DNA from: a virus
Lineage: Duplodnaviria > Heunggongvirae > Uroviricota > Caudoviricetes
Reading direction: 5' to 3' (one strand)
DNA: 42,114 bases
Virus record (IMG/VR): IMGVR_UViG_2875703104_000005
The notes beneath the pieces were generated by a model. That model was not told where the DNA came from. It made no database searches and worked only from the letters and a program-made list of their open reading frames with translations. Shown one piece after another: positions 24,563-38,964 of this stretch (positions within the stretch are counted from its first letter, which is position 1; every line of letters starts with the position of its first letter). A program made the translations under genes and the position numbers.

Positions 24563-25128
24563 TGTGTAACCCAGCCATCGCTTTGGTTGCCGTCACAGTG
24601 GCATCCACAGCCGCGTCAATGTACAGCCAGAGCAAGCAGGCAAAATACCAGTCAGCCATAGCTGATCGGAATGCTGAAATTGCTGAAGCTCAGGCACAGG
24701 ATTCAATCAATCGTGGGAATATTGAAGCGGATCAGCGTCGTCGTGAAATGCGTCAACGCTCAGGCACTGCGGCGGCCACTATGGGGGCTACCGGTGCGGA
24801 ATTAAGTAGCGGAACAGCTCTTGACGTTTTTGCGGATAATGCTCAGTTCGGCACTCTTGATGCGTTAACGACAGTGAATAATGCTCAGCGTGAGGCATAT
24901 GGGTATCAGGTTCAGGGAATGAATGCTCAGGCACAGGGGGCTGCTGCTCAGTCGGCTGCTAAATCATCGATGACCAGCACTTTGTTAACGGCACCACTAA
25001 AAGCATACGGTGCATATAAGTTGGGTAGCGGAAGTATCAATCCGATTAGTAAGCAAGGAAACACGCCAATGTTATCTAACTCAGGTTTTATGAATTCTGA
25101 CTCCCGATTCAAAATAGGAGGTTACTGA
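24562..25128 (+). CDS. Internal virion protein
   Basis: 188 aa, N-terminal hydrophobic segment, Ala/Gln-rich; upstream of two very large core genes. Confidence 0.4.
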   Translation: MCNPAIALVAVTVASTAASMYSQSKQAKYQSAIADRNAEIAEAQAQDSINRGNIEADQRRREMRQRSGTAAATMGATGAELSSGTALDVFADNAQFGTLDALTTVNNAQREAYGYQVQGMNAQAQGAAAQSAAKSSMTSTLLTAPLKAYGAYKLGSGSINPISKQGNTPMLSNSGFMNSDSRFKIGGY

Positions 25129-27875
25129 TGCCTGTTGTTCCTACTACATCCGGACGCCAGGTGCAAAGTCGTGGTGTGCAAACCGGTGGTTTTCAGACCT
25201 TCGATGTTCCTCAAGCAGGTCAGGTGCTGGCGAATGTCGCAGATCAGTATGCGGTGGCATATGGTGAAGCCAGGCAGAAAGCGAATGTTGCTATGGCCCA
25301 GGAGGCGTTACTGCAATTTAACCAATTTGCAGATGACCAGATTAACAACCCTGAAAATGGGCTGATTTCTAAACAGGGTAAAAACGCTCTTGGTCAGAGT
25401 GACGCTGTTATGAAAAATATGCAGGAAAGGGCTCAGGCATTATTAGGCTCAATTCCTGAAAGTGAGGAAAGGAATAAATTATCCTTTCAACTCCAGCAGT
25501 CTATGCAGTCTTATTACAATCAGGCACGTCGATATGAAGTTGGGCAGTTTCAGCAATTCCAAGATCAAACGTATTTGTCAGGAAATGCATTGGCTGTCAC
25601 TCAGTCTGCGGGGCTATATAGCGATAACCAAGCATTTGTCGATTTAGCCAAGCAGCGATTTGAATCTATTGATCAATACGCTGATGCGCATGGGCTTCCT
25701 GATGAGTGGCGTGTTCAGCAGAAAACTCAGCTCAAGGAACAAATGGGGCAGCAAGCATGGATAGGAAATATCGCTCAAAAATACAACGAGTTTCTTCAGG
25801 TTAATGGAGAGCCAGGGGATCTTGATGGTGTGAGTCGTGCAATATCACATGGTAATTCATTGGATGCTCGTGGTTTACGTAATAATAACCCCGGTAATAT
25901 TGAAGCGAGCAAATCTAACCCGTGGGAAGGTCAGATCGGTAGCGATGGACGTTTTGCAACGTTTGCTACCCCTGAGCATGGAATCCGCGCGTTGGGTAAA
26001 AATATGTTGTCTTACCAGCGTCAAGGCTATGACACCGTTAGCGAGATTGTTAATCGCTATGCTCCGGCTAGTGATGGTAATAATACTGATGCTTATATTA
26101 GGGCATTGTGTGGTGAGCTTGGTGTTGGGGAGAATGATCAGCTTGATATCTCTAACCCAAAGACACTAGCTGCTTTATGTGCTGGGATTATTAAACACGA
26201 AAATGGCAGTATGCCTTATAGCACCGAACAGCTTGAAACTGGTATCTCGGCAGCCCTTGGTCTAACTAACCTTGATTCACCTAAGCGTTATACGGGCAAT
26301 GCGGCATTTGATGCTATGAGCCCTCAAATGCAAATACAGGCATTGAGGCAGGCTAATGAGCTGAGAAATCAGTACCGCCAGCAGTATGCGGACCAGCTTA
26401 GCACCGTAGTTAAAGATGCATATTCAGCCCTTGATGAAGGATTGAAACCTGAGAAGTTACCTTCTGAGGACGATTTTATCCGGGCCAATGGTCCGCGCAT
26501 TGGCGCTATGAAGTGGAAGGATATGCAGGCGCAGATACAATATGGAGGTGTCATTGGTGCCGCTAAAGACCTCACTCCAGAAGGACGGCAAGACATTCTT
26601 GAACGTTTACGTCCACAGGATCCAAACGCTCCTGGATTTGCAGCTAACCAGCAACGCTGGGAGAAAATGCAGGCCAAATTTAAAGAGATGGATAGGGAGT
26701 GGGAGATTCAGCAGGGAAGAAACAGGTTCGTGTCTTCAATGCAAAATAACTTCCCGCTGGACCCGAACGACAAAAACAATCAGGCAGCGGTAGACCGTTA
26801 TTTCGCGCAGGATATCGCGCCTTCGTTTTCCATATCTGATCCGCAGAGCATCAATACACTGGTCACCGTCACAACTAAAAGCGGCATGATACCAACTCAG
26901 ATTAAAACAATGCTTAACAGTGGAGCGACATCAAGAGATCCTGCGCTGGTTGTCCCGATGGCAAAATTCTACGGTCAGTTATTCGATAATAATCCGGCGG
27001 CAGCGGCAACACTTGATAAAAGTACGATGGCATTTTACGGCAAGGTTTACGATTATTCCCGCGCTGGCGTGCCGGAGGATAAGGCTGTTGATATGGCTTA
27101 CAGCCAGGTGTTCCAACAGGATGACCGAATGAAACAGATGCTTTCCACTGCCATGCGAGACAAAAAATATGTCGCGGCGAGGGCAACTGCTGCACAAAAT
27201 AACGCCAGCAGTCTGACTTCCTTTGGTTCGTGGTCTCCGGATATTACCGATCCAGGAAAATCAAATGCGGCCTATCAGCGAGATTACCAGACAATTTACG
27301 ATGCTAACTTTGTACAGACAGGTGGCGATGCAGAACAGGCTGAGAAAATGACCAATGCCATGATCAGAACCACTTGGGGAGTTTCTACGGTTAATGGCAA
27401 AGCAGAGGTTATGAAGTATGCACCTGAGGCATTGTACGGAGTAAATAATGGTGCTGGTAACTGGATACAGGGGCAGTGGGAGCAGGAAAAACGCGAGCTT
27501 AAATCAAAATCCTTTGGCGGTCCTCGCAGTGATACGGACTTAATACTTGTTTCTGATGGCCTTACGGCAAGGGATAGGAGTTATGCTGTTATGGTTTTAC
27601 AGCCTGACGCAAACGGAGCGATAGAACCGAGAAATTATATTGGAGAAAATGGTCTCCCTGTTCGTTTCAAGCCGGATCAGCTGACATCTCCAATGTACAG
27701 GCAAACCATTCAGTTCCAGCAACAGCGTGTTGATGAGGCTAGAGTGCGGAGAGAAGGCAATCCGCTGCCGCAGTTCAGCAATAAAGATGGATATACTCCT
27801 CCAGATCTGACAAAACCATTCGGTTATGGTTCAGCCAATTACCTTCCGAGCAATATATACGCAGGGGGCAAATAA
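25128..27875 (+). CDS. Large internal virion / core protein
   Basis: 915 aa; contains a conserved block RNNNPGNIEASKSNPWEGQ ... FATFATPEHGIRA inside an AT-rich, apparently mosaic middle segment. Confidence 0.5.
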   Translation: MPVVPTTSGRQVQSRGVQTGGFQTFDVPQAGQVLANVADQYAVAYGEARQKANVAMAQEALLQFNQFADDQINNPENGLISKQGKNALGQSDAVMKNMQERAQALLGSIPESEERNKLSFQLQQSMQSYYNQARRYEVGQFQQFQDQTYLSGNALAVTQSAGLYSDNQAFVDLAKQRFESIDQYADAHGLPDEWRVQQKTQLKEQMGQQAWIGNIAQKYNEFLQVNGEPGDLDGVSRAISHGNSLDARGLRNNNPGNIEASKSNPWEGQIGSDGRFATFATPEHGIRALGKNMLSYQRQGYDTVSEIVNRYAPASDGNNTDAYIRALCGELGVGENDQLDISNPKTLAALCAGIIKHENGSMPYSTEQLETGISAALGLTNLDSPKRYTGNAAFDAMSPQMQIQALRQANELRNQYRQQYADQLSTVVKDAYSALDEGLKPEKLPSEDDFIRANGPRIGAMKWKDMQAQIQYGGVIGAAKDLTPEGRQDILERLRPQDPNAPGFAANQQRWEKMQAKFKEMDREWEIQQGRNRFVSSMQNNFPLDPNDKNNQAAVDRYFAQDIAPSFSISDPQSINTLVTVTTKSGMIPTQIKTMLNSGATSRDPALVVPMAKFYGQLFDNNPAAAATLDKSTMAFYGKVYDYSRAGVPEDKAVDMAYSQVFQQDDRMKQMLSTAMRDKKYVAARATAAQNNASSLTSFGSWSPDITDPGKSNAAYQRDYQTIYDANFVQTGGDAEQAEKMTNAMIRTTWGVSTVNGKAEVMKYAPEALYGVNNGAGNWIQGQWEQEKRELKSKSFGGPRSDTDLILVSDGLTARDRSYAVMVLQPDANGAIEPRNYIGENGLPVRFKPDQLTSPMYRQTIQFQQQRVDEARVRREGNPLPQFSNKDGYTPPDLTKPFGYGSANYLPSNIYAGGK

Positions 27876-30800
27876 TGCCGATATATGAACAGGATCCTAA
27901 AGAGTTGCTTGGCGAGGGTATTCAGCAAATAGCAGCACCTGATGACAGTAATTTCTATATGGAAACACCTTCTTTGCTTTCTGCTGTGAACCCATTTACC
28001 AGTGATCAACGCGTTCAAAGGTCTAGACAAGCAGCATTTCGTATAGATAACACGCTGGGTAGCTTTATTGCCAGTGCTCCTTTCAGTCAGTTTGACAGGG
28101 TTGAAGGATATAACCCATTTGATAACGATGCAGCAGATATTAAAGGCTATGAAGATTTTGCAGATTCGTTTATCAACTCCGGTTCGCATGAAGAAACAAT
28201 GGCAATTAAACATCGAATCGATCAGCAGAGAGCTGACATGGAATACAATTCAGGCTTGGGATTTGCTGGTACAGTCTCTTCTGTAGCAATGAGATTAGCA
28301 GATCCATTCAATGCGATTTCTATGTTTATTCCGTTCGGCGCTGTCGTTCGTGGCGGTCGTATTGCAGAAACAGCCGGACGTTTTGCTTTAGCCAATGCTG
28401 CTGGCAGTGTTGCTTCAGAGGCCGCATTGCAGGCCACTCAGGAAGCTCGCTCACCGATGGAGAGCGTATCGAACGTTGTTGTTGATGCTCTCGTTGGTGG
28501 GATCCTTGGTGCTGGTGCACAGCTACTTGCTGGACCTAGCGCGCGCGAGGCAGTGGTTAACTCAGTAGGTAATCATTTGCGAGGTATGGATTCTCCTCAA
28601 AGCATTGGTGCAGCTCAGGTTTTCAATACCACACTCGATCAGGAACAGCTTGCTGGACTTGGACTTGCTAACAAAACGTTGAGTGTCACTCCTGCTGGCC
28701 GCTTGGCGCAATCACCATCTCTTGTTTCCCGTCAGATTAACCAGCAGCTTGCCGAAAATAACTATTTCTTCGCCAAAAATGATGAGGGGTTGGCTACGTT
28801 TACGGCAGTCGAGACTAAGATTAAGCAATACGACGCCATGCTTTATAAGCAGATGGAAGCTACTCGTGATGCTTACCAGCAGTACAGCAAATCTGTCAGC
28901 GCCCGCGGCGTGAAGAGGATGAACTTTATTGATTTCAATGAAGCTGTTGGCATGGCTATGCGCCGTGGTGATCAGAGTGATATTCCTGAGGTTTCACAAG
29001 CAGCCGCCAGAATCCGCCCCATTTTTGAGACCACAAAAGCCCGTATGCAGGAATTGGGGATCCTTCCTGAGGATATCGATGTCGTGACGGCGAAGAGTTA
29101 TCTTCCCCGCATTTATAAGTTCGATAAGATACTTTCCGACCGCACTGAATTCAGAGGGCGAATTGCCAACTGGATACAAGGGATTAGTGCCAAAGGTGCT
29201 GACAAAGCAGGTCAGCGAATTGAAAAGATAAATTCATTGCTAAAAACTGCAGAGGAATCAGCACCGCGCGCTGATGCTCTCGCTAGTGAAATCGCTGAAG
29301 CGGAGAAATGGTCTGGTAAAAAAATTCTACTCATGGAAGAACTGGATAAACGAAATAAGCTTATATCTCAGGAGACTGACACACAGGCGCGTCTTACAAG
29401 AATAGAAAAAGAGTTGGCCGAGACTTCATCAGAAAAACTTCAGGCAAGAATGATGAAAGAAAGCTCTGACCTTAAAACACGCCTTGATGATATAGCGCAG
29501 GCAAAGAGTGAGCTTCCTGTCTATCAGCGCCATATGGAGTTGCTGGATAATCCACGGAAATATCGTTCTGAGCTTCGCCGACTGCAAAAACGGGCAAATT
29601 CAACCACAAGGCTGAATGCAAGCCGCGAGCGAGCACTGAAGCAGATGGAGCCTCTATCCCGAGAGGAAGCAGAGGACGCTGCTGACGAGATCGTGAATAA
29701 AATAATAGGCGCACCTTCCGGGCTTGTACCAGCCGATATTATCCCAGAGAGACTCGTTGGTCGGGCTGGTTTCACTAAAAGCCGAACGCTGCTTATTCCT
29801 GATGAGCGTATAGAAGATTTTCTTGAATCAGATGTTAACTACATCATGGAAAGTTATCTCCGGCAGGTGGCACCAGAAATTGAGCTGACTGCGCAGTTTG
29901 GCCGTAAAGATATGGGGGAGCAAATCCGTCAGGTTAGTGAGGAATATACCCGGCTAATAAAAGAGGCTAAAACACCTAAACGACGTGCAGCTCTTGAGAA
30001 GCAACGGGAGGCTGATATTAGGGATATTACGGCTATGCGTGACCGACTGCTTGGTACTTACGGCGCACCTCAAGATCCACGCAGTTTCTTTGTTCGTGCC
30101 GGGCGAGTTGCTAGGAATATTAACTTCCTCCGTTTGCTTGGTGGAATGACCGTCTCCGCTGCAACTGATCTGATGCGACCGATGATGCAGCATGGCCTGA
30201 GAAAATCTCTCGGACCAATGGTAAGCATGCTTAAAAATATGGACTCAGTGAAAATTGCAACCAGGGATTTGCGAGAAATGGCAGTTGGGCTTGATTATGT
30301 CCTGTCTACGCGTACAAAGGCTATAGCGGATCTTACTGACCCCTATAGCCGGAGAAGCGCCGCTGAGCGAGGTCTGAACTGGATGACGCAGAAATTCGGT
30401 AACTGGACGCTGATGAATCAGTGGAACAGCGCACTTAAATCATGGTCTGGGATGATAGTGCAGTCGAGGATACTTGACGCGGCTCGCCAAGTTTCTGCTG
30501 GTGGCACGCTCTCCAAAAGTGAAATGCGGAAGATGGCACAGGTCGGCATCAATGAAGATGTTCTGCGCCGAATCGGGGAGCAATTCGGGAAGCACGGAGA
30601 GGATATGGACGGGCTGTTAACCGGGCATAGTCATCTGTGGGATGACCGTTTCGCTAGAGAGATTTTCCAGTCTGCAGTGCTGAAAGATGTAGACTCAGTG
30701 ATTGTAACGCCTGGCGTAGGTGATACACCGCTGTTTTTTAGTAAAGAAGGCTGGAAGATGATCACGCAGTTCAAAACGTTTATCTTCGCACAGCATAACA

Positions 30801-31264
30801 GGGTGCTGGTATCTGGTATCCAGCAGGGCGATGCTGCATTCTATCTTGGTGCGCTTGGCACGATTGCGCTTGGCTCAATGGTCTATATGATGAAACAGAA
30901 GTTAAGCGGTCGCGATATCGACTACAGCTGGAATAACCTTGTGAAAGAGGGGATCGACCGGGGCGGAATGCTTGGCTGGCTCTCTGAGCCGCTGAATACC
31001 GTTGAGAACATAAGCGGCGGTAGGTTTGGTCTTGGCGCGATGTTTGGTGCGCCTCCGGTATCAAGGTTTCAGAGTCGTAATGCTATTGGTGCTTTACTTG
31101 GTCCTACCTTTGATCTTGGCGGTGATGCCGCGACGGTTGCGAATGGTGTACTTAACGGAGAATTTGACAGCCAGCAAACCCACGCGGTCCGTAAAATGCT
31201 ACCTTTTCAGAACCTGTGGGCGATATCACCATTACTGAATAAAGTTGAAGAGCAGATGAAATAG
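27875..31264 (+). CDS. Very large internal virion / DNA-ejection protein
   Basis: 1129 aa, long coiled-coil middle region, C-terminal hydrophobic segments; last gene of the core string. Confidence 0.5.
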   Translation: MPIYEQDPKELLGEGIQQIAAPDDSNFYMETPSLLSAVNPFTSDQRVQRSRQAAFRIDNTLGSFIASAPFSQFDRVEGYNPFDNDAADIKGYEDFADSFINSGSHEETMAIKHRIDQQRADMEYNSGLGFAGTVSSVAMRLADPFNAISMFIPFGAVVRGGRIAETAGRFALANAAGSVASEAALQATQEARSPMESVSNVVVDALVGGILGAGAQLLAGPSAREAVVNSVGNHLRGMDSPQSIGAAQVFNTTLDQEQLAGLGLANKTLSVTPAGRLAQSPSLVSRQINQQLAENNYFFAKNDEGLATFTAVETKIKQYDAMLYKQMEATRDAYQQYSKSVSARGVKRMNFIDFNEAVGMAMRRGDQSDIPEVSQAAARIRPIFETTKARMQELGILPEDIDVVTAKSYLPRIYKFDKILSDRTEFRGRIANWIQGISAKGADKAGQRIEKINSLLKTAEESAPRADALASEIAEAEKWSGKKILLMEELDKRNKLISQETDTQARLTRIEKELAETSSEKLQARMMKESSDLKTRLDDIAQAKSELPVYQRHMELLDNPRKYRSELRRLQKRANSTTRLNASRERALKQMEPLSREEAEDAADEIVNKIIGAPSGLVPADIIPERLVGRAGFTKSRTLLIPDERIEDFLESDVNYIMESYLRQVAPEIELTAQFGRKDMGEQIRQVSEEYTRLIKEAKTPKRRAALEKQREADIRDITAMRDRLLGTYGAPQDPRSFFVRAGRVARNINFLRLLGGMTVSAATDLMRPMMQHGLRKSLGPMVSMLKNMDSVKIATRDLREMAVGLDYVLSTRTKAIADLTDPYSRRSAAERGLNWMTQKFGNWTLMNQWNSALKSWSGMIVQSRILDAARQVSAGGTLSKSEMRKMAQVGINEDVLRRIGEQFGKHGEDMDGLLTGHSHLWDDRFAREIFQSAVLKDVDSVIVTPGVGDTPLFFSKEGWKMITQFKTFIFAQHNRVLVSGIQQGDAAFYLGALGTIALGSMVYMMKQKLSGRDIDYSWNNLVKEGIDRGGMLGWLSEPLNTVENISGGRFGLGAMFGAPPVSRFQSRNAIGALLGPTFDLGGDAATVANGVLNGEFDSQQTHAVRKMLPFQNLWAISPLLNKVEEQMK

Positions 31265-31265
31265 G

Positions 31266-32114
31266 ATGAAAAAAATAAATTTGTTTGGCATTGTGCTTTC
31301 AATAGTCGCTGTAAATCCTACAGCCGCCAGTTCATTGCAATGCAATAAGGATAACTTTGATGCATGCAAAACGTGTGAACAATTATCAAAGGCTATCGAC
31401 TTAAAAGAACCTAATCGCGGCGATTACTATAGAGGGGCTTTATGGAATGGGCTTTACGTCTCCTATGTAATTAATTGCCCTGTGGTTGCTGAGAAGTTAT
31501 TGAGCCATGGTGCTATACCATCATATGGCGGATATATGGGGTCTATGGGGGCGGTTCTGACAGGGAAATGGCCTCATAACAATGAATCAATAAATCTTTC
31601 ATGGGCAGATTTGCTTATAAAACATGGGTTTGATGTTAATAAGCATACTGGGCATTATAAATCAGCTACTGAGGTATGGGCTATAGATAAAAAACAGATT
31701 GAATATAAGTCAGTGTTTGACAAGTTAATTCAATCCAGCGAAGTAAAACCACTCGATCCTTCAAGAAATTTAGAATGGTGTGCGTCTGAAGGGTATCGCT
31801 CAGTTGTCGTTTATTCCCTTAACTCATGTATAGAAAATGCTATAAAACGTTTAGATGACGGTGTTTCTTCAGCGTCTGATATTTCATCCGCAGCCGTAAA
31901 TTCATGTACTAGCGATGTAGAAAATTTCAATAAGCATTTGTCATGCAAATCAGCTGTTAAAGAAAATTCTGATAAAGAGAAAAGAAACGTTTATCAGTTA
32001 TTAACCAGTGATAGTCAAATGAATAAAAATGTTATGGATATGCTGAAGGAAAGAAATATTGAAACGGTTCTTGAATTCAGAGCTGAAAATCGTGCAATGA
32101 AAACTTCACAATAA
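31266..32114 (+). CDS. Secreted protein of unknown function (low-GC moron)
   Basis: 282 aa; N-terminal signal peptide (MKKINLFGIVLSIVAVNPTAASS), several Cys, possible ankyrin-like repeats; markedly AT-rich compared with flanking genes. Confidence 0.5.
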   Translation: MKKINLFGIVLSIVAVNPTAASSLQCNKDNFDACKTCEQLSKAIDLKEPNRGDYYRGALWNGLYVSYVINCPVVAEKLLSHGAIPSYGGYMGSMGAVLTGKWPHNNESINLSWADLLIKHGFDVNKHTGHYKSATEVWAIDKKQIEYKSVFDKLIQSSEVKPLDPSRNLEWCASEGYRSVVVYSLNSCIENAIKRLDDGVSSASDISSAAVNSCTSDVENFNKHLSCKSAVKENSDKEKRNVYQLLTSDSQMNKNVMDMLKERNIETVLEFRAENRAMKTSQ

Positions 32115-32191
32115 TAAAACATCTGTTCTGGATTGCGCCACTAATAAACCAGGTGGATCCGGTGATGAAGTAATTTTATAGAGGTGCTTAT

Positions 32192-32488
32192 ATGGATATT
32201 AAAGAGTTTAGTGAGTTAGAGAGACGCTATGAGCAAGCTAAAACGAACCGAGCTATAGGGGCATTTATTGGCGGCGGTGGGGTATTTGCTCTGTTAGCCG
32301 ATTTTTTATGGGATGTTGCGAACCCAATATCAATAGGGGTATTAATAGGCGGCGGACTTGTTTTTTTTGCTGTATGCCACGAACAGGTTCGAAGTTCATT
32401 AAGAAAGTTGGATGAAGAATGTTATTTGAAGTATGGCAAGTCTTACTCTCAATCATTCCATGAAATTTTTAAAGACAAATATAATTAG
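32192..32488 (+). CDS. Small two-transmembrane protein (low-GC moron)
   Basis: 98 aa; two Gly-rich hydrophobic helices (AIGAFIGGGGVFALL; ISIGVLIGGGLVFFAV); GAGGTG RBS; AT-rich. Confidence 0.5.
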   Translation: MDIKEFSELERRYEQAKTNRAIGAFIGGGGVFALLADFLWDVANPISIGVLIGGGLVFFAVCHEQVRSSLRKLDEECYLKYGKSYSQSFHEIFKDKYN

Positions 32489-32836
32489 TTAGTGGCGGGA
32501 GAAATAGTACACACGGAAATAAGTTACCGTCATAATCAACCGTGTCGATATCGATACGGTTGATGTTTCAATACTTTCGCGGATTACAGGGCAGACTTTG
32601 TTTGGCTGAATGCTTGAAAGCCAAGCCGCAAACTTACGAAAGGCAAGGCATATCATTAACTGTTTACCGCCAGCAGAAGGTATTTCGATTTCCGAAATAC
32701 CTTTGACAAATCTCTGTTTTAATTTAACAAATTGAGCAGCCCAAACCATACCCATGCCTTCAACGATAGGTTTCATTGGGGTGTACGGTTCGCCGTTGTG
32801 ATTGACGACATAAAGCTCTGCGCCGTGTAATGGCAC
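32489..32836 (-). pseudogene. Probable truncated remnant of a phage regulatory / anti-repressor-like gene
   Basis: 115-aa ORF whose N-terminal two thirds look like a conserved phage domain and whose C-terminus is low-complexity; abuts the moron and the inverted-repeat leader. Confidence 0.3.
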
Positions 32837-33000: not shown

Positions 33001-33090
33001 TTACACCGCACTCCTCTTGTGCCATAGTAATCGGGCACTGGCAAAATCCAGTGCCGGGATTGGCGTCCCGGATTACTAAAAGGCGCATTC

Positions 33091-33110
33091 ACCGCGCAAG
33101 CGGTTTTTTT
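33091..33110 (+). terminator. Leader terminator / attenuator upstream of the Bro-N anti-repressor
   Basis: Stem ACCGC/GCGGT with GCAA loop and a 7-T run, about 100 nt downstream of the operator-like site. Confidence 0.5.
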
Positions 33111-33267
33111 ATGCGTATAGCACGGCCACATTCGTATTATGGTGGGCTGTGTGGGGGCACCGAAAGGTGCGCCGGGTCCTTTTAGCCGGTTACGCCAACC
33201 CTGCACAGTTCACCACCAACCGATTGGCGTCGGTAGTGGTGATTAACCAGACTAAAAGGTAACCACT

Positions 33268-33963
33268 ATGACAGCTACAAAAAGCACGTCCATTTTTTCT
33301 TTCGAATCTCAAGCCGATATACGGGTAATCGTCATTAATGGTGAGCCATGGTTTATCGCTTCAGATGTTTGTCGGGCTATAGGCATAGCAAACCATCGAG
33401 ATGCTGTTCGAAAACTTGATGATGATGAGAAGGGCGTCGCTTCAACCGACACCCCTGGCGGTGAGCAAGAATCGATCATTATCTCCGAGTCAGGCCTCTA
33501 CACACTGATCCTCCGCTGCCGCGATGCGGTGACACCAGGCACTATCCCATACCGCTTTCGTAAATGGGTTACAGGTGAGGTTCTTCCTCAGATCCGCCGC
33601 ACCGGAAGTTACATTAAAAACTCGCTCCCGCAGGAAGAACGCATAAAGATGGTTGCCGACCAGGTAGCCAACGCCACGGCGTCAGCAGTAATGCAGGCGA
33701 TGAAGATAGAGAACAAAACCTACAGTGCCCCGCTGAAGCCCGGCTACCGCAGCCTGATTCATTCGCCGTCGGGTGTTCTCGGCCTGACGGAGAACTCACT
33801 GCTGATGAATCTGCTGAACCAGTTACAGGAAGACGGGCACGACGTATCGGGCGCGGCGGCGGAACTGACCACCATGTTCTGCTACATCGTCGGTGTGAGC
33901 AAATGCCTGCGTGATATCCAGACGCACGCGGAGTACATCAACGACAAGGCAGGGTTCTTCTGA
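33268..33963 (+). CDS. Anti-repressor, Bro-N N-terminal domain with shared C-terminal domain
   Basis: 231 aa; Bro-N pattern (IRVIVINGEPWFIASDVCRAIG ... ESGLYTLILRCR); C-terminal 80 aa identical to the C-terminus of the 35074-35730 product. Confidence 0.7.
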   Translation: MTATKSTSIFSFESQADIRVIVINGEPWFIASDVCRAIGIANHRDAVRKLDDDEKGVASTDTPGGEQESIIISESGLYTLILRCRDAVTPGTIPYRFRKWVTGEVLPQIRRTGSYIKNSLPQEERIKMVADQVANATASAVMQAMKIENKTYSAPLKPGYRSLIHSPSGVLGLTENSLLMNLLNQLQEDGHDVSGAAAELTTMFCYIVGVSKCLRDIQTHAEYINDKAGFF

Positions 33964-34109: not shown

Positions 34110-34742
34110 ATGAGAACAAATACAACAAGAAAAGCGATGCCATACATTATCCCAGAAGCAGATTTCGATAGAAAACTGAACATGTCTGAGAAGAACACTA
34201 GTCACACCGAAAGCTACTTAGCGAAAGGTGTGGTTGATTTCGTTCTTCCGGGATTCACAACACCTTATGGTTATCGCCTTGTAAAATCTTGTAATGGCGA
34301 TCATTACAGAATGATTACTACCAGCGATACTCCAGAAACGGTGTATGCGGTTAAGTTAATCTTTCGGGAAGATATCGTCGAAGCCAAAAGAACATGTACG
34401 CAGATCATGGTATGGCGTACGCCTAATGTTATTCATGACCGTGCTGTTCATGGTTTGCCTCAGATTTTTTTTCAGTTCTTCCTAGAGCAATATGCGATCG
34501 TTGTATCTGATGAGCAACAAACAATCGATGGGAGAAGATTCTGGGAAAGAATGATTTCTTGGGCTATAAACACCCCAGGATATAATGTATACGTTTCAGA
34601 TGGCTCTGAAGAAGATAGACCTCTTAGCTTCATGACATCATGGGATGATTTCTATAGCCAGTGGGCTGATTTCTGTTGGGGCAGTGATAAAGATGTGCAT
34701 ACCCACAGACTACTGGTTATAAGCAAAGATAAACTGCATTAA
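34110..34742 (+). CDS. Hypothetical moron protein with its own operator-like site and terminator
   Basis: 210 aa; GGAGG RBS; operator-like palindrome 59 bp upstream; strong terminator immediately downstream; lower GC than the core genome. Confidence 0.5.
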   Translation: MRTNTTRKAMPYIIPEADFDRKLNMSEKNTSHTESYLAKGVVDFVLPGFTTPYGYRLVKSCNGDHYRMITTSDTPETVYAVKLIFREDIVEAKRTCTQIMVWRTPNVIHDRAVHGLPQIFFQFFLEQYAIVVSDEQQTIDGRRFWERMISWAINTPGYNVYVSDGSEEDRPLSFMTSWDDFYSQWADFCWGSDKDVHTHRLLVISKDKLH

Positions 34743-34745
34743 TAG

Positions 34746-34770
34746 AAGCCCGCAGCGCGGGCTTTTTTGT
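34746..34770 (+). terminator. Intrinsic terminator after the moron
   Basis: 8-bp stem AAGCCCGC/GCGGGCTT, loop AGC, then TTTTTT. Confidence 0.7.
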
Positions 34771-34840
34771 GGACGAAACAAAAGTCAGTGCTACACTCAT
34801 TGACGCCACATTGAGGTGGCTTATAGATGGAAATTTCACA

Positions 34841-35002
34841 ATGAAAAAAGCATTTGCTGCACTGTTCGTTTTGTTGTCTCTGGTAGCTTCAACTCAGGCC
34901 TTTGCCGGTCGTTGTCAGCACGACAGCGATACTGCCGCTGACGGCTCCCGCTGCGGTGGGCGTTCTGCGGATTCCCGCCCAGGCGGCGGTGGCATTCGTT
35001 AA
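34841..35002 (+). CDS. Small secreted Gly/Arg/Cys-rich peptide (53 aa)
   Basis: Signal-peptide-like N-terminus MKKAFAALFVLLSLVASTQAFA; weak RBS, so tentative. Confidence 0.3.
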   Translation: MKKAFAALFVLLSLVASTQAFAGRCQHDSDTAADGSRCGGRSADSRPGGGGIR

Positions 35003-35024
35003 AAACAAGGCCGCGAAAGCGGCC
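35001..35024 (-). terminator. Intrinsic terminator after the AntA-type gene
   Basis: Stem GGCCGC/GCGGCC, loop GAAA, then TTGTTTTT on the minus strand. Confidence 0.55.
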
Positions 35025-35038
35025 TGTGACATGTCACG
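35025..35038. repeat. 14-mer TGTGACATGTCACG, copy 3
   Basis: Immediately 3' (plus strand) of the hairpin that terminates the AntA-type gene. Confidence 0.6.
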
Positions 35039-35047
35039 ATAGTTTCG

Positions 35048-35316
35048 TTTTGCACGTCCCTGTGCCGCCGCCGTCAGAAGAACCCTGCCTTGTCGTTGAT
35101 GTACTCCGCGTGGGTCTGGATATCACGCAGGCATTTGCTCACACCGACGATGTAGCAGAACATGGTGGTCAGCTCCGCCGCCGCGCCCGATACGTCGTGC
35201 CCGTCTTCCTGTAACTGGTTCAGCAGATTCATCAGCAGTGAGTTCTCCGTCAGGCCGAGAACACCCGACGGCGAGTGAATCAGACTGCGGTAGCCGGGCT
35301 TCAGTGGGGCACTGTA
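35048..35316. repeat. Inverted repeat, anti-repressor C-terminal domain, right arm
   Basis: Reverse complement of 33721-33990 with about two mismatches. Confidence 0.8.
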
Positions 35317-35730
35317 TTCTTTTTTGTCTTCCAGCTTGATCGCCTCCATAATGGCGGGCATGAAGCCTGACAAGACCTTCTCCACCTTTGTTTCTTGTTG
35401 TCTTAAACGTTTCTCGCATTCAATGAAGTATCGGCGTATCTGGCGGCCTTTTTCGTTGCGCTCGACCATCGCAGTTTCTTTGGCCGTATCGAGGGTGAGG
35501 TGATAGTCTTTGCTACGGCGATCGCCTCCTCGACCTTTGATTTCCCGATTTGGGGAAACCAAAATATAGTCCTGATTTTCAACGAAACCATATTCAGCAA
35601 TGCGTTCTGTAATCCACGATGCAAAGCGTTTACCTACCCCAAGAAAAGTATGTAAATCGCGAGCATTAACGAGAAGAGTGGTTTCGTTGGCGATAGTGCC
35701 GTTGAATACGGGGATGAGTTGAGCGTTCAT
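35074..35730 (-). CDS. Anti-repressor, AntA-type N-terminal domain with shared C-terminal domain
   Basis: 218 aa; AntA-like N-terminus (LIPVFNGTIANETTLLVNARDLHTFLGVGKRFASWI); C-terminal 80 aa identical to the Bro-N paralog; GGAG RBS. Confidence 0.7.
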   Translation of the reverse strand: MNAQLIPVFNGTIANETTLLVNARDLHTFLGVGKRFASWITERIAEYGFVENQDYILVSPNREIKGRGGDRRSKDYHLTLDTAKETAMVERNEKGRQIRRYFIECEKRLRQQETKVEKVLSGFMPAIMEAIKLEDKKEYSAPLKPGYRSLIHSPSGVLGLTENSLLMNLLNQLQEDGHDVSGAAAELTTMFCYIVGVSKCLRDIQTHAEYINDKAGFF

Positions 35731-35888
35731 GATGGCGTCTCCACTTAGCGAATTACATCACCACCGCTGAGACCAATCAGATGGTGGTGAACTGAACGGA
35801 GTTGGTCTTACCGGCCTAAGTGGTACCGGCGTCCTTTCGGACCCCCATTCAGCCCACCATAATTCTGGCATGACTGTGCTATACGCAT

Positions 35889-35910
35889 AAAAAAACCACG
35901 TCTGGCGTGG
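35889..35910 (-). terminator. Leader terminator / attenuator upstream of the AntA-type anti-repressor
   Basis: Stem CCACG/CGTGG with a 7-T run at the equivalent leader position; stem sequence differs from the left arm but pairing is preserved. Confidence 0.5.
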
Positions 35911-36000
35911 TATGCGCCACTTAGTAATCCGGGAGACCAATCCCGGCACTGGATTTTGCCAGTGCCCGATTACTATGGCACAAGAGGAGTGCGGTGTAAA

Positions 36001-36501: not shown

Positions 36502-38964
36502 ATGACGGTCTCAACCGAAGTTGACCACAACGAATACACAGGTAACGGCGTTACGACATCATTTCCGTATACCTTCCGTATTTTCAAAAAATCCGACCTG
36601 GTTGTTCAGGTGTCTGACCTTAACGGTAACGTTACAAAACTAGTGCTGGATGCTGGTTATACGGTAACAGGGGCGGGAACTTATAGTGGCGGTGCAGTGG
36701 TTCTTCCGTCGCCGCTTGCTGCTGGCTGGCGAATCACGATAGAGCGTGTGCTTGATGTGGTGCAGGAGACTGATCTTCGCAATCAGGGAAAATTTTTCCC
36801 CGAAGTTCATGAGGATGCATTTGACTACCTGACGATGCTGATCCAGCGATGTTTTGGGTGGTTCAGACGTGCATTGATGAAACCATCTTTGCTTGCAAAA
36901 TATTACGATGCAAAGCAAAACAGAATATCTAACCTTGCCGATCCATCACTTGAGCAGGACGCTGTAAATAATCGCTCAATGCGTAATTATGTCGATGCTG
37001 CAATCGCCGGGGTTGTTGGTGGTTTTGGTTGGTTTATTCAGTATGGTTCTGGAGCGGTATACAGAACACTCCAGGATAAGATGCGTGATGGTGTCAGCAT
37101 TAAGGATTTTGGAGCTCAAAATGGAATCTTAAATGATAACAAGGAGGCTTTTACAAAATCATTACATTCGTTTAGCAGTGTTTTTGTTCCGGAAGGGGTA
37201 TTCAATACATCTTTAGTTTCTCTTTCACGTTGTGGCTTGTACGGAACAGGTGGGGGAACGATAAAACAGTATGACAGAGATGGTAATCATCTGGTTTTTA
37301 ACATGCCCGATGGTGGCATGCTTAGTACGCTAACAATTATGGGAAATAAATCAGATGATAGTGTGCAGGGACACCAGGTGTCATTTTCAGGTGGCCATGA
37401 TGTATCGGTTAAAAATATCAGATTTACAAATACGCGAGGAACAGGATTTAGCTTGATCGCTTATCCGAATAATGGTATTCCGTCAGGTTACATTGTTAGA
37501 GATATAAGAGGAGAGTATTTAGGGTTCGCAAATAATAAAAAAGCAGGTTGTGTGCTTTTTGATTCATCGCAAAATACGCTAATTGATGGTGTGATAGCCA
37601 GAAATTATCCTCAGTTTGGTGCAGTGGAACTTAAAACAGCAGCAAAATATAACATTGTCAGCAATGTTATTGGTGAAGAGTGTCAGCACGTTGTTTACAA
37701 TGGAACTGAGACGGAAACTGCCCCAACGAATAATATCATTAGCAGTGTAATGGCTAACAACCCAAAATACGCCGCAGTAGTTGTTGGCAAGGGGACTGGT
37801 AACCTGATTTCGAATGTGCTGGTTGATTACTCTGAATCGGACGCAAAGCAGGCGCACGGAGTCACCGTTCAGGGAAATAATAATATTGCCAGTAATATTC
37901 TAATGACTGGGTGTGATGGGAAAAATGAATCAGGAGATCTGCAGACATCTACAACCATTCGTTTCTTAGATGCTGCACGCAGTAATTATGCGTCAATATT
38001 CCCCATGTATAGTTCTTCCGGCGTGGTTACCTTCGAGGAAGGGTGTATCAGGAACTTTGTTGAAATTAAACATCCGGGTGACAGAAATAATATTCTGAGT
38101 TCTGCATCAGCGGTGACTGGTATTTCCAGTATAGACGGCACTACAAATAGCAATGTTGTTCACGTCCCTGCGCTTGGTCAGTACGTTGGGACTATGTCAG
38201 GGCGTTTTGAATGGTGGGTTAAATATTTTAACCTTGCTAACCAGACGCTTGTTTCTGCAGATAAATTCAGAATGCTTGCTGAAGGCGATGTATCTCTGGC
38301 TGTGGGAGGCGGTATAAGTTCGCAATTGAAATTATTCAATAGTGATAATACTAAAGGCACTATGTCGCTAATAAATGGAAATATTCGAATATCTACTGGA
38401 AATTCAGAATATATACAGTTTTCTGATTCAGCCATGACACCATCGACAACGAATACTTATTCTCTTGGGTTGGCTGGTCGTGCATGGTCGGGGGGATTTA
38501 CCCAGTCAGCGTTTACGGTGCTGTCCGATGCGCGTTTCAAGACTGCTCCAGAGGTTATTGATGAGAAAATACTGGACGCATGGGAAAGAGTGGAATGGGT
38601 TTCATACCAGTACCTTGACAGGATCGAAGTGAAAGGTAAAGACGGAGCAAGATGGCACTTTGGTGCAGTTGCGCAGCATGTTATCAGTGTATTTCAGAAT
38701 GAAGGCATAGATGTGTCACGACTGGCATTTATCTGTTATGACAAGTGGAATGAGACCCCGGCAGAATACAGGGATGTGACGGAAGAAGAGCATTCTGCAG
38801 GAGTTTACCCACTTATACAGACAAAGGTTCTGGTACGCGAAGCCGTCGAGGCTGGTGAATGTTACGGTATCCGTTATGAAGAGGCTCTGATTCTGGAATC
38901 TGCGATGATGAGACGCAGGGTTAAAAAGCTGGAAGAGCAAGTTTTGCAATTAACAGGGAATTGA
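36502..38964 (+). CDS. Tailspike / tail fibre with C-terminal intramolecular chaperone (S74-like) domain
   Basis: 820 aa; conserved tail-fibre N-terminus (YTGNGVTTSFPYTF), central beta-helix-like repeats (low-GC), C-terminal SDARFK ... autoproteolytic chaperone motif. Confidence 0.75.
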   Translation: MTVSTEVDHNEYTGNGVTTSFPYTFRIFKKSDLVVQVSDLNGNVTKLVLDAGYTVTGAGTYSGGAVVLPSPLAAGWRITIERVLDVVQETDLRNQGKFFPEVHEDAFDYLTMLIQRCFGWFRRALMKPSLLAKYYDAKQNRISNLADPSLEQDAVNNRSMRNYVDAAIAGVVGGFGWFIQYGSGAVYRTLQDKMRDGVSIKDFGAQNGILNDNKEAFTKSLHSFSSVFVPEGVFNTSLVSLSRCGLYGTGGGTIKQYDRDGNHLVFNMPDGGMLSTLTIMGNKSDDSVQGHQVSFSGGHDVSVKNIRFTNTRGTGFSLIAYPNNGIPSGYIVRDIRGEYLGFANNKKAGCVLFDSSQNTLIDGVIARNYPQFGAVELKTAAKYNIVSNVIGEECQHVVYNGTETETAPTNNIISSVMANNPKYAAVVVGKGTGNLISNVLVDYSESDAKQAHGVTVQGNNNIASNILMTGCDGKNESGDLQTSTTIRFLDAARSNYASIFPMYSSSGVVTFEEGCIRNFVEIKHPGDRNNILSSASAVTGISSIDGTTNSNVVHVPALGQYVGTMSGRFEWWVKYFNLANQTLVSADKFRMLAEGDVSLAVGGGISSQLKLFNSDNTKGTMSLINGNIRISTGNSEYIQFSDSAMTPSTTNTYSLGLAGRAWSGGFTQSAFTVLSDARFKTAPEVIDEKILDAWERVEWVSYQYLDRIEVKGKDGARWHFGAVAQHVISVFQNEGIDVSRLAFICYDKWNETPAEYRDVTEEEHSAGVYPLIQTKVLVREAVEAGECYGIRYEEALILESAMMRRRVKKLEEQVLQLTGN

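What the first reader, a model, noticed from the sequence alone, without database searches (positions are those of the whole stretch)
31266..32488. Low-GC two-gene cassette (secreted Cys-containing protein plus small two-TM protein) between the core and tailspike genes
This cassette is clearly more AT-rich than its neighbours and encodes a 282-aa signal-peptide protein with possible ankyrin-like repeats and a 98-aa membrane protein with two Gly-rich helices. This position in podovirus-type temperate phages often carries lysogenic-conversion or superinfection-exclusion genes. Neither protein has a function I can assign, so this is a candidate undescribed system.
Basis: inference. Interest (0 to 1): 0.6.

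Follow-up and report, generated by a model that had tools for sequence, protein, structure and literature searches.

The report
Two independent prophage envelope cargo genes
Two small AT-rich genes at the end of a prophage's DNA-injection operon encode a secreted ankyrin-like protein and a tiny membrane protein; both are real but unrelated add-ons joined by recombination, and they probably block infection by rival phages, which has not been tested.

Summary
ORFs 31266-32114 (282 aa) and 32192-32488 (98 aa) exist, and they form the lowest-GC 1.2 kb of the window (0.371 vs 0.484, z -3.6). Both are under purifying selection. The window is a phiV10/epsilon15-like E. coli prophage, 100% identical to strain MCJCHV-1 over the cassette and its annotated flanks.

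The "two-gene system" reading is not supported. The 51 nt before the 98-aa gene's ribosome-binding site are a relic 3' end of a foreign core gene. Each gene also occurs alone, directly after the last ejection-protein gene, in other prophages. In 5,426 complete E. coli genomes the counts are 106 for the 282-aa gene, 38 for the 98-aa gene and 34 for both.

The 282-aa protein has a signal peptide and eight invariant cysteines. Its N-terminal domain is a divergent ankyrin-clan domain and its C-terminal domain is an unannotated helical Cys domain. It is conserved at this slot in Escherichia, Klebsiella, Serratia and Morganella. The 98-aa protein is a predicted in-in two-TM hairpin.

Neither is homologous to P22 SieA, T4 Spackle or Imm, phiV10p21 or any PADLOC family.

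Best inference (about 0.35): they are envelope accessory proteins that act on the ejection-protein conduit of incoming phages, i.e. superinfection exclusion. The adjacent 915-aa core protein carries a muralytic domain that could be a target. Expression and phenotype are untested.

The parts
31266..32114 (+). orf282: secreted two-domain protein (282 aa), translationally abutting the last core gene (stop TAG 31262-31264, one base, then ATG)
   Evidence: ORF. dN/dS 0.16. 13-member family with 8 invariant Cys. AF2 model all-alpha, pLDDT 81. phrog_6118, unknown function.
31266..31331 (+). Signal peptide (aa 1-22, MKKINLFGIVLSIVAVNPTAAS); probable signal peptidase I site just before the first invariant Cys; no lipobox
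   Evidence: Hydrophobic segment aa 4-24. pLDDT below 50 for aa 1-22. Homologues have equivalent N-termini ending AxA/AG two residues before Cys. The cleavage site is inferred.
31332..31745 (+). N-terminal divergent ankyrin-clan domain (aa ~23-160) with 4 invariant Cys and the motifs ALWNGLY and KWPHN; also exists as a stand-alone secreted family of ~160-175 aa
31746..32111 (+). C-terminal helical domain (aa ~161-282) with 4 invariant Cys and the motif C-x9-LDDGVS-x-ASDI-x-A-x4-C; related to unannotated small secreted proteins
   Evidence: pLDDT 90-97. Weak profile hits E 9e-8 to 1e-3 to secreted proteins of 110-190 aa. Shared motif in alignment A4. No Pfam hit.
32123..32173 (+). Relic 3' end of a foreign (TL-2011b-type) last-core gene; in frame it reads LFWIAPLINQVDPVMK*. 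Marks the recombination junction between the two genes
   Evidence: Identical to the C-terminus of the UTME-14 core remnant. A 45-nt stretch (32123-32167) is 100% identical to the 3' end of the TL-2011b core gene, whose protein ends ...VMR. Similarity to UTME-14 (97.9%) starts at 32123. Similarity to EC.W1-9 and Klebsiella ends at 32121. The 45-nt match lies inside CDSs in many genomes.
32180..32185 (+). Shine-Dalgarno AGAGGT, 6 nt upstream of the orf98 ATG
   Evidence: Read directly from the sequence.
32192..32488 (+). orf98: small inner-membrane hairpin protein. Charged N-terminus (aa 1-20), TM1 aa 21-40 (GGGG), 5-residue loop DVANP, TM2 aa 46-62 (GGG), charged C-terminus aa 63-98. Predicted N-in/C-in
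   Evidence: ORF. Hydropathy and charge distribution. 7 synonymous, 0 non-synonymous vs UTME-14; pN/pS 0.36 vs Citrobacter. phrog_21905, unknown. AF2 helical hairpin of low confidence. The topology is inferred.
27875..31264 (+). Context: last internal core/ejection protein (1129 aa); its conserved 3' end is the left recombination anchor for cargo in this slot
   Evidence: phrog_342, internal virion protein. The orf282 homologue directly follows its orthologue in Klebsiella, Serratia and Morganella. Relic 3' ends in the window and in Morganella.
25866..26324 (+). Context: muralytic (endolysin-like) domain, aa 247-399 of the 915-aa core protein; a candidate periplasmic target
   Evidence: PDB 9vvp_L Gp29 at E 5e-35 and 7q47 endolysin at 4e-15. 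phrog_1044, endolysin. The target role is inference only.

Best explanation
The locus is not one system. It is two independent accessory (moron-type) genes that each belong to the variable slot directly downstream of the last ejection/core protein gene of T7-core-type temperate podoviruses. In this prophage lineage they were brought side by side by recombination anchored in the conserved 3' end of the core gene.

orf282 is exported by the Sec pathway to the periplasm, where up to four disulfide bonds could form from its eight invariant cysteines. There it acts as a protein-binding module made of a divergent ankyrin domain plus a Cys-stapled helical domain. orf98 inserts in the inner membrane as a Gly-zipper hairpin with both ends in the cytoplasm.

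The most likely function of each is to interfere with the trans-envelope DNA-delivery conduit that incoming phages of the same core type build from their ejection proteins. orf282 would bind a periplasmic part of it, for example the muralytic domain of the 915-aa protein, as T4 Spackle does. orf98 would act at the inner membrane, as P22 SieA, T4 Imm and HK97 gp15 do. The result would be superinfection exclusion, or protection from lysis-from-without.

Shown: gene reality, export and membrane features, domain composition, independence of the two genes, slot linkage, dispensability. Inferred: localisation, target, phenotype and time of expression.
For: - Independence and mosaic origin: relic core 3' end at 32123-32173. 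orf98 alone after a core gene in UTME-14 and Citrobacter. orf282 alone in EC.W1-9, Klebsiella and 72 E. coli genomes. A second relic in Morganella.
- Accessory, not structural: Klebsiella phage ST512-KPC3phi13.3 has a 92%-identical core protein but an unrelated ORF in the slot. phiV10 and TL-2011b fill the slot differently. 14 of 120 E. coli prophages with this core gene lack orf282.
- Slot-specific linkage: orf282 homologues down to 40% identity always directly follow the last core gene, and their divergence tracks the backbone (85/83, 57/57, 40/38% vs the 915-aa protein).
- Recurrent small multi-TM proteins of unrelated sequence occupy the same slot: Serratia, Morganella, phiV10p21.
- Envelope targeting: signal peptide, 8 invariant Cys, 2 TM segments.
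- A muralytic domain is present in the adjacent ejection protein.
- Positional and functional precedents: P22 sieA lies between gene 16 and gene 9 next to immI, and its escape mutants map to ejection proteins. The window also has an immI-like c4-ant region next to the slot. HK97 gp15 is a small inner-membrane protein encoded in a late-operon moron. T4 Spackle is a periplasmic inhibitor of the gp5 lysozyme.
Against: - No sequence or fold homology to any characterised exclusion protein: SieA, Spackle, Imm, phiV10p21. No PADLOC hit.
- No promoter-like site upstream of orf282. It starts one base after the core gene stop with no usable Shine-Dalgarno spacing. In EC.W1-9 and Klebsiella a terminator follows it, so it looks like the last gene of the late operon. 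Expression from the repressed prophage, normally expected of a Sie gene, is therefore not indicated. P22 sieA, by contrast, is on the opposite strand with its own promoter.
- dN/dS 0.16 shows no arms-race signature.
- Stand-alone relatives of the N-domain occur in non-phage contexts, next to cytochrome c and NOX-like genes in Alphaproteobacteria, so the domain is a general periplasmic module.
- Truncated orf98 variants exist.
Confidence: 0.35

Rival explanations
1. Late-lytic accessory function for the phage's own cycle. orf282 (and orf98 where present) are made only late, as the terminal genes of the virion operon. They act in the envelope of the already infected cell. Possible roles are tuning lysis timing, sensing or neutralising superinfecting virions (T4 RI/Spackle-like resistance to lysis-from-without), or shielding peptidoglycan from the muralytic core protein of secondary adsorbers until progeny are complete.
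For: One-base gap to the core gene, no promoter-like site, weak or absent Shine-Dalgarno and hence probable translational coupling. A strong intrinsic terminator lies 8 nt after orf282 in EC.W1-9 and Klebsiella. Long-term co-divergence with the structural module. EC.W1-9, a phage isolated free from sewage, keeps the gene.
Against: The gene is dispensable in close relatives that have the same core proteins. A complete lysis cassette (two holins, GH19 endolysin, Rz-like protein) lies elsewhere. The conserved low GC and the cargo-like exchange by recombination are typical of host-benefit morons. In Morganella a hairpin and a 176-nt spacer uncouple it from the core gene.
Confidence: 0.25
2. Host-benefit factor unrelated to phages. 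orf282 is a periplasmic binding or immunity protein that neutralises a periplasm-acting toxin, such as a T6SS Tle-type lipase (like the ankyrin immunity protein Tli), a colicin or a host lysozyme. Alternatively it is a fitness or virulence moron of ExPEC. orf98 would be an unrelated small membrane stress protein.
Against: No cognate effector gene nearby. Strict positional linkage to the last ejection-protein gene across four genera, with divergence tracking the phage backbone, fits a phage-directed role better. Similarity to Tli is only generic ankyrin fold, with no sequence hit. All 107 E. coli copies are in this prophage slot and none elsewhere.
Confidence: 0.15
3. One reading: a co-evolved two-gene system in which the secreted protein and the 2-TM protein work together as one undescribed unit.
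For: The genes are adjacent, co-oriented and both AT-rich, with no terminator between them in the window. Serratia and Morganella also have a ~100-aa membrane protein after the orf282 homologue.
Against: A relic of a foreign core gene lies between them. Each gene occurs alone in the same slot. The Serratia and Morganella small proteins showed no evident similarity to orf98 by inspection and were not recovered in the orf98 homology search. Only 34 of 110 E. coli genomes with either gene have both. A terminator directly follows orf282 in the commoner arrangement.
Confidence: 0.05

Closest known systems
P22 SieA (superinfection exclusion A; Leavitt et al. 2024, PMC10883804)
   Same: Encoded in the slot between the last ejection-protein gene and the tailspike gene, next to an antirepressor (immI) region. 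Present in only some related phages. An envelope (inner-membrane) protein. Its target is the ejection-protein conduit.
   Different: No sequence similarity to orf98 or orf282. sieA is on the opposite strand with its own promoter, whereas the window genes are co-oriented with, and abut, the late operon. SieA is a 164-aa multi-TM protein, not a periplasmic soluble protein or a 98-aa hairpin.
T4 Spackle (gp61.3) plus Imm
   Same: Same division of labour by compartment: a signal-peptide periplasmic all-helical protein and a small inner-membrane protein of about 80-100 aa (the latter from the T4 record note and the translated sequence). Spackle inhibits the muralytic domain of the incoming phage (PMC7677548). 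The window phage's 915-aa ejection protein has a muralytic domain.
   Different: No sequence or profile similarity. No Spackle among the listed Foldseek PDB matches. T4 genes are early lytic genes of a virulent myovirus. orf282 is three times larger, has two domains and is ankyrin-like.
HK97 gp15 moron (Cumby et al. 2012; reviewed in PMC3594210)
   Same: A small inner-membrane protein encoded by an insertion inside a late virion operon of a temperate phage. It blocks genome entry in a manner dependent on the incoming phage's tail or ejection apparatus.
   Different: gp15 is YebO-related and has its own promoter and terminator. Homology to orf98 was not tested here, and no promoter was detected for the window genes.
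Periplasmic ankyrin-repeat proteins of Enterobacterales (E. cloacae Tli, PDB 7ubz; 7kb2)
   Same: Sec-exported ankyrin-fold proteins. Tli binds and neutralises a periplasm-acting enzyme.
PhiV10p21 (46-aa two-TM protein after the last core gene of phage phiV10)
   Same: Same slot, same strand, small two-TM membrane protein followed by a terminator.
   Different: No sequence similarity to orf98. Uncharacterised itself.

Membership tests
Moron (Juhala/Hendrix definition, as summarised in PMC3594210) | Present in some but absent from otherwise closely related phage genomes | tested here: met
   Klebsiella phage ST512-KPC3phi13.3 has a 92%-identical core protein but no orf282. E. coli counts are core 120, orf282 106, orf98 38 genomes.
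Moron (Juhala/Hendrix definition, as summarised in PMC3594210) | GC content differs from surrounding genes | tested here: met
   0.365 and 0.384 against 0.482 for the core gene; lowest in the window. The same offset is seen in four genera.
Moron (Juhala/Hendrix definition, as summarised in PMC3594210) | Own promoter | tested here: not met
   No sigma-70-like site upstream of either gene on the + strand. orf282 starts 1 nt after the core stop. A consensus scan cannot exclude a weak or embedded promoter.
Moron (Juhala/Hendrix definition, as summarised in PMC3594210) | Own terminator | tested here: inconclusive
   A strong terminator lies 8 nt after orf282 in EC.W1-9 and Klebsiella. It is absent at that place in the window, where the relic and orf98 follow. 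Only a non-T-rich hairpin follows orf98.
Moron (Juhala/Hendrix definition, as summarised in PMC3594210) | Expressed from the repressed prophage | not testable with these tools
   No expression data available.
P22 SieA family | Sequence homology, including the FxRYPxEAxxFNK motif | tested here: not met
   BLASTP E 7.7 and 1.1. The motif is absent from both proteins (motif).
P22 SieA family | Gene lies between the last ejection-protein gene and the tailspike gene | tested here: met
P22 SieA family | Blocks DNA injection by phages with cognate ejection proteins | not testable with these tools
   Needs plating or injection assays.
T4 Spackle | Sequence or fold similarity to gp61.3 | tested here: not met
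   hhalign probability 0.2%. No Spackle entry among the 50 listed Foldseek PDB matches, none of which has E below 0.29.
T4 Spackle | Periplasmic protein that inhibits the tail- or ejection-associated muralytic enzyme | not testable with these tools
   A signal peptide is present and a muralytic domain is present in the 915-aa core protein. Binding and inhibition are untested.
T4 Imm | Sequence homology | tested here: not met
   hhalign probability 0.45%.
Ankyrin repeat clan | Match to Pfam Ank models at the gathering threshold | tested here: not met
   No Pfam hit for orf282 or its N-domain, even at E 5. 2 of 17 stand-alone relatives hit Ank, best E 7e-5.
Ankyrin repeat clan | Profile-level and fold-level similarity to ankyrin repeats | tested here: met
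T6SS Tli-type ankyrin immunity protein | Encoded next to its cognate Tle effector | tested here: not met
   Neighbours are phage core and antirepressor genes.
Known anti-phage defence systems (PADLOC-DB v2) | Match to any defence-protein model | tested here: not met
   No hit at E up to 0.1 for either protein.
HK97 gp15 / YebO | Sequence homology to gp15/YebO | not tested
   The sequence was not fetched. Only the architectural analogy is used.

The most novel reading that the evidence does not exclude
orf282 founds a new class of phage exclusion protein. It would be a Sec-exported, disulfide-stapled ankyrin-plus-helical-domain protein that binds the periplasmic part of the ejection-protein conduit of T7-core-type podoviruses, for instance inhibiting the muralytic domain of the 915-aa protein. 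The post-core slot would be a dedicated, recombination-exchangeable 'entry-blocker' locus, in which unrelated small membrane proteins (orf98, phiV10p21, the Serratia and Morganella proteins) are alternative inner-membrane blockers.
Probability: 0.2. Interest if true: 0.65.

Novelty: new variant of a known kind. Interest (0 to 1): 0.4.

Why it matters
If the inference holds, this would be the first periplasmic ankyrin-type superinfection-exclusion protein. It would also define a conserved, exchangeable cargo slot behind the ejection-protein genes of epsilon15/phiV10-like and related temperate podoviruses. These prophages are present in about 2% of complete E. coli genomes, mostly from human isolates and including O25b:H4-ST131, CSF, blood and UPEC-named strains. 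Such proteins determine which therapeutic or competing podoviruses can infect lysogens. They would also give a handle on how ejection proteins assemble their trans-envelope channel. Even without a phenotype, the analysis defines two unannotated secreted-domain families and shows that recombination anchored in the core gene's 3' end shuffles this cargo.

Tried and rejected
- Direct annotation: Pfam, NCBIfam and PADLOC gave nothing for either protein. PHROGs gave only unknown-function families.
- PDB sequence searches with the single sequence and with the family profile gave only sub-threshold DARPin hits.
- Foldseek against PDB and BFVD gave no hit better than E 0.05. AFDB50 was unavailable.
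- Homology to P22 SieA, phiV10p21, T4 Spackle and T4 Imm: none.
- The Klebsiella phage 204-aa slot occupant is unrelated to orf282.
- Promoter and terminator scans of the window and of the Morganella locus found no convincing promoter for either gene.
- Context of stand-alone domain relatives gave no functional lead. N-domain relatives lie next to cytochrome c and a NOX-like gene in two alphaproteobacteria and in an integrase-rich region in a deltaproteobacterium. C-domain relatives are on an 857-bp contig and in a toxin-antitoxin-like island. The first C-domain alignment was too diverse for the locus scan.
- The AF2 model of orf98 is too low in confidence (pLDDT 56) for fold search.
- Literature searches for periplasmic ankyrin proteins in prophages, or for post-core-slot genes of Uetakevirus, found nothing specific.
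- Rejected: lysogenic conversion of O-antigen (no transferase features), a structural virion role (signal peptide; dispensable in relatives), and a spurious ORF (purifying selection in both genes).
Full report
**Observation**

Together they form the most AT-rich 1.2 kb of the 42-kb window. GC is 0.371 against a mean of 0.484, z = -3.6, and the global minimum of all 1223-nt windows starts at 31269. GC3 is 0.30 and 0.33, against 0.42-0.58 for the structural genes.

Both are real genes. orf282 has dN/dS of about 0.16 against the EC.W1-9 and Klebsiella orthologues. orf98 differs from the E. coli UTME-14 allele by 7 synonymous and 0 non-synonymous substitutions, and pN/pS against a Citrobacter homologue is 0.36.

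**Context**

Over the cassette and the annotated 25-kb stretch around it, the window is 100% identical to the chromosome of E. coli MCJCHV-1, next to yfgI/yfgH. It is a phiV10/epsilon15-like podovirus prophage. The gene order is:

- tail proteins;
- a T7-gp14-like protein;
- a 915-aa core protein;
- a 1129-aa core protein (27875-31264);
- orf282, then orf98;
- a truncated antirepressor pseudogene;
- two inverted c4-antisense-RNA/antirepressor modules;
- the tail fibre/tailspike gene (36502-38964);
- the lysis genes.

orf282 begins one base after the core gene's stop codon, with no promoter-like or terminator-like site between them. orf98 has a good Shine-Dalgarno, AGAGGT followed by 6 nt.

**The proteins**

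*orf282.* It belongs to a small family restricted to Enterobacterales: Escherichia, Klebsiella, Serratia, Morganella and Providencia, down to 39% identity. The family has a signal peptide, eight invariant cysteines and strongly conserved ALWNGLY and KWPHN motifs. An AlphaFold model built on the family alignment is all-alpha with mean pLDDT 81.

An exhaustive profile search splits the protein into two domains:

- An N-terminal domain that also exists as an abundant stand-alone secreted family of 160-175 aa (E 1e-41 to 1e-27).
- A C-terminal helical domain, weakly related to small secreted proteins that share a C-x9-LDDG(I/V)S-x-ASDIA-x-A-x4-C motif.

Neither domain is in Pfam.

The N-domain is a divergent member of the ankyrin clan. 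The evidence is:

- The profile hits genuine multi-ankyrin proteins at 3.6e-9 and 2.3e-4.
- Ank is the only Pfam family that recurs among stand-alone relatives.
- Foldseek lists are ankyrin-dominated but not significant.

*orf98.* It has a charged N-terminus, two Gly-rich hydrophobic helices separated by the five-residue loop DVANP, and a charged C-terminus. This predicts an in-in inner-membrane hairpin. It has only six relatives in 5.8 billion proteins and none in 50,697 phage records.

**The two genes are not a unit**

- Similarity to EC.W1-9 and to Klebsiella prophages ends at 32121, seven bases after the orf282 stop.
- From 32123 the window is 97.9% identical to E. coli UTME-14. There the identical 98-aa protein directly follows a different (TL-2011b-type) core gene.
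- Read in frame, window 32123-32173 gives LFWIAPLINQVDPVMK*, the exact C-terminus of that foreign core protein. orf98 therefore arrived with the tail end of another phage's core gene.
- A 59%-identical homologue in Citrobacter braakii also sits 10 nt after the last core gene of yet another podovirus prophage that lacks orf282.
- Conversely, orf282 occurs without orf98 in phage EC.W1-9, in Klebsiella and in most E. coli carriers. In EC.W1-9 and Klebsiella a strong intrinsic terminator follows it within 8 nt.
- Among 5,426 complete E. coli genomes, the core gene's 3' end is in 120, orf282 in 106 (34 with the window allele, 72 with an allele at about 95.6%), orf98 in 38, and both in 34.

**The slot**

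orf282 homologues always directly follow the last core gene, in Klebsiella, Serratia and Morganella as well. In every genus they are 10-15 GC points below that gene. Their divergence parallels the 915-aa core protein: 85/83, 57/57 and 40/38% identity. orf282 is thus an old resident of this phage lineage with an intrinsically AT-rich gene, not a recent import.

It is nonetheless dispensable:

- Klebsiella phage ST512-KPC3phi13.3 has a 92%-identical core protein but an unrelated, non-secreted 204-aa ORF in the slot.
- TL-2011b has two reverse-strand genes followed by arc-ant.
- phiV10 has a 46-aa two-TM protein plus a terminator.
- Serratia and Morganella carry small multi-TM proteins of 98-100 aa, with no evident similarity to orf98, after their orf282 homologues.
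- Morganella also has a relic core 3' end in front of its orf282 homologue.

The slot is therefore a cargo site whose contents are exchanged by recombination anchored in the conserved 3' end of the core gene. It repeatedly holds envelope proteins.

**Mechanism**

No characterised homologue exists. Tests against P22 SieA, phiV10p21, T4 Spackle, T4 Imm and PADLOC were all negative. The explanation below is therefore inferential.

The synteny [quoted passage not shown] matches P22. There the slot holds sieA, whose inner-membrane product blocks DNA delivery, and escape mutations map to ejection proteins gp16 and gp20 (PMC10883804). HK97 gp15 shows that a small inner-membrane exclusion protein can be encoded inside a late virion operon (PMC3594210). 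T4 Spackle shows that a periplasmic protein can exclude by inhibiting the incoming phage's muralytic enzyme (PMC7677548).

The 915-aa core protein just upstream carries such a domain, at aa 247-399 (E 5e-35 to PDB 9vvp Gp29, 4e-15 to endolysin 7q47). Periplasmic ankyrin proteins are known enzyme neutralisers, for example Tli.

I therefore favour, at about 0.35, the view that orf282 (a periplasmic binder) and orf98 (an inner-membrane hairpin) each interfere with the ejection-protein conduit of incoming phages of the same core type.

The main weakness is expression. orf282 looks like the terminal, translationally coupled gene of the late operon, with no promoter of its own. P22 sieA, by contrast, is on the opposite strand with its own promoter. 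This keeps a late-lytic accessory role alive at about 0.25. A phage-unrelated periplasmic immunity or fitness role is less likely, at about 0.15, because of the strict slot linkage and the absence of a cognate effector. The co-evolved two-gene system is essentially refuted.

**Verdict**

These are two independent, uncharacterised envelope cargo genes in a recombination-prone post-core slot. The exclusion function is plausible but untested. I rate novelty as a new variant of a known kind (moron-type or exclusion-type cargo with an unprecedented ankyrin-like periplasmic protein) and interest as moderate (0.4).

Noticed in passing
window 33022-33220 (+) and 35780-35978 (-): Two inverted copies of an isrK + C4 antisense RNA + c4-a1b1 target module (P1-type immI control). 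Each lies just upstream of an antirepressor-type gene: BRO-N at 33268-33963 (+) and Ant at 35074-35730 (-). The two proteins share an identical C-terminus of about 75 aa.
   Followed up: partly
window 34746-35027, compared with L001 7123-7404: This segment is inverted relative to phage EC.W1-9. It holds a 53-aa secreted Cys/Gly-rich peptide gene (34841-35002) and a strong terminator (35008-35025). In EC.W1-9 and Klebsiella the terminator sits 8 nt after the orf282 stop. The inverted c4-ant repeats may have mediated the rearrangement.
   Followed up: partly
window 32489-32836 (-): A truncated P22_AR_N antirepressor pseudogene abuts the orf98 stop codon; PGAP marks it as missing its C-terminus. 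A perfect 13-bp-stem hairpin without a T-run lies inside it at about 32535-32564.
   Followed up: no
window 25128-27875 (aa 247-399, nt 25866-26324): The 915-aa internal core protein carries an endolysin-like muralytic domain (PDB 9vvp Gp29 at 5e-35, 7q47 at 4e-15) that Pfam does not detect.
   Followed up: partly
window 34110-34742 (+): A 210-aa ORF of low GC (0.408) in phrog_1349, unknown function, with no Pfam, NCBIfam or PADLOC hit. It is another uncharacterised cargo gene between the two antirepressor modules.
   Followed up: no
L013 6633-7492 and L014 6618-7495 (alphaproteobacterial genomes): Distant stand-alone relatives of the orf282 N-domain are encoded 5 nt downstream of a small cytochrome c gene. 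A divergent EF-hand/ferric-reductase (NOX-like) gene lies beside them. The arrangement is conserved in two genomes, which suggests a periplasmic redox-associated role for that subfamily.
   Followed up: no
L006 7825-8000 (Morganella prophage): The 176-nt spacer between the core gene and the orf282 homologue contains a GC-rich hairpin. It also contains a relic core-gene 3' end that reads ...LLPFQNLFYLAPLRKQVKEQIINN. This is a second example of cargo exchange anchored in the core gene's 3' end.
   Followed up: yes
window 30300-32114, compared with other E. coli genomes: There is a sharp divergence step exactly at the orf282 start. The core 3' end is at least 99% identical in 116 of 120 genomes, while orf282 is only about 95.6% identical in 72 of 106. 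Two orf282 alleles are therefore being swapped on a nearly invariant backbone.
   Followed up: partly
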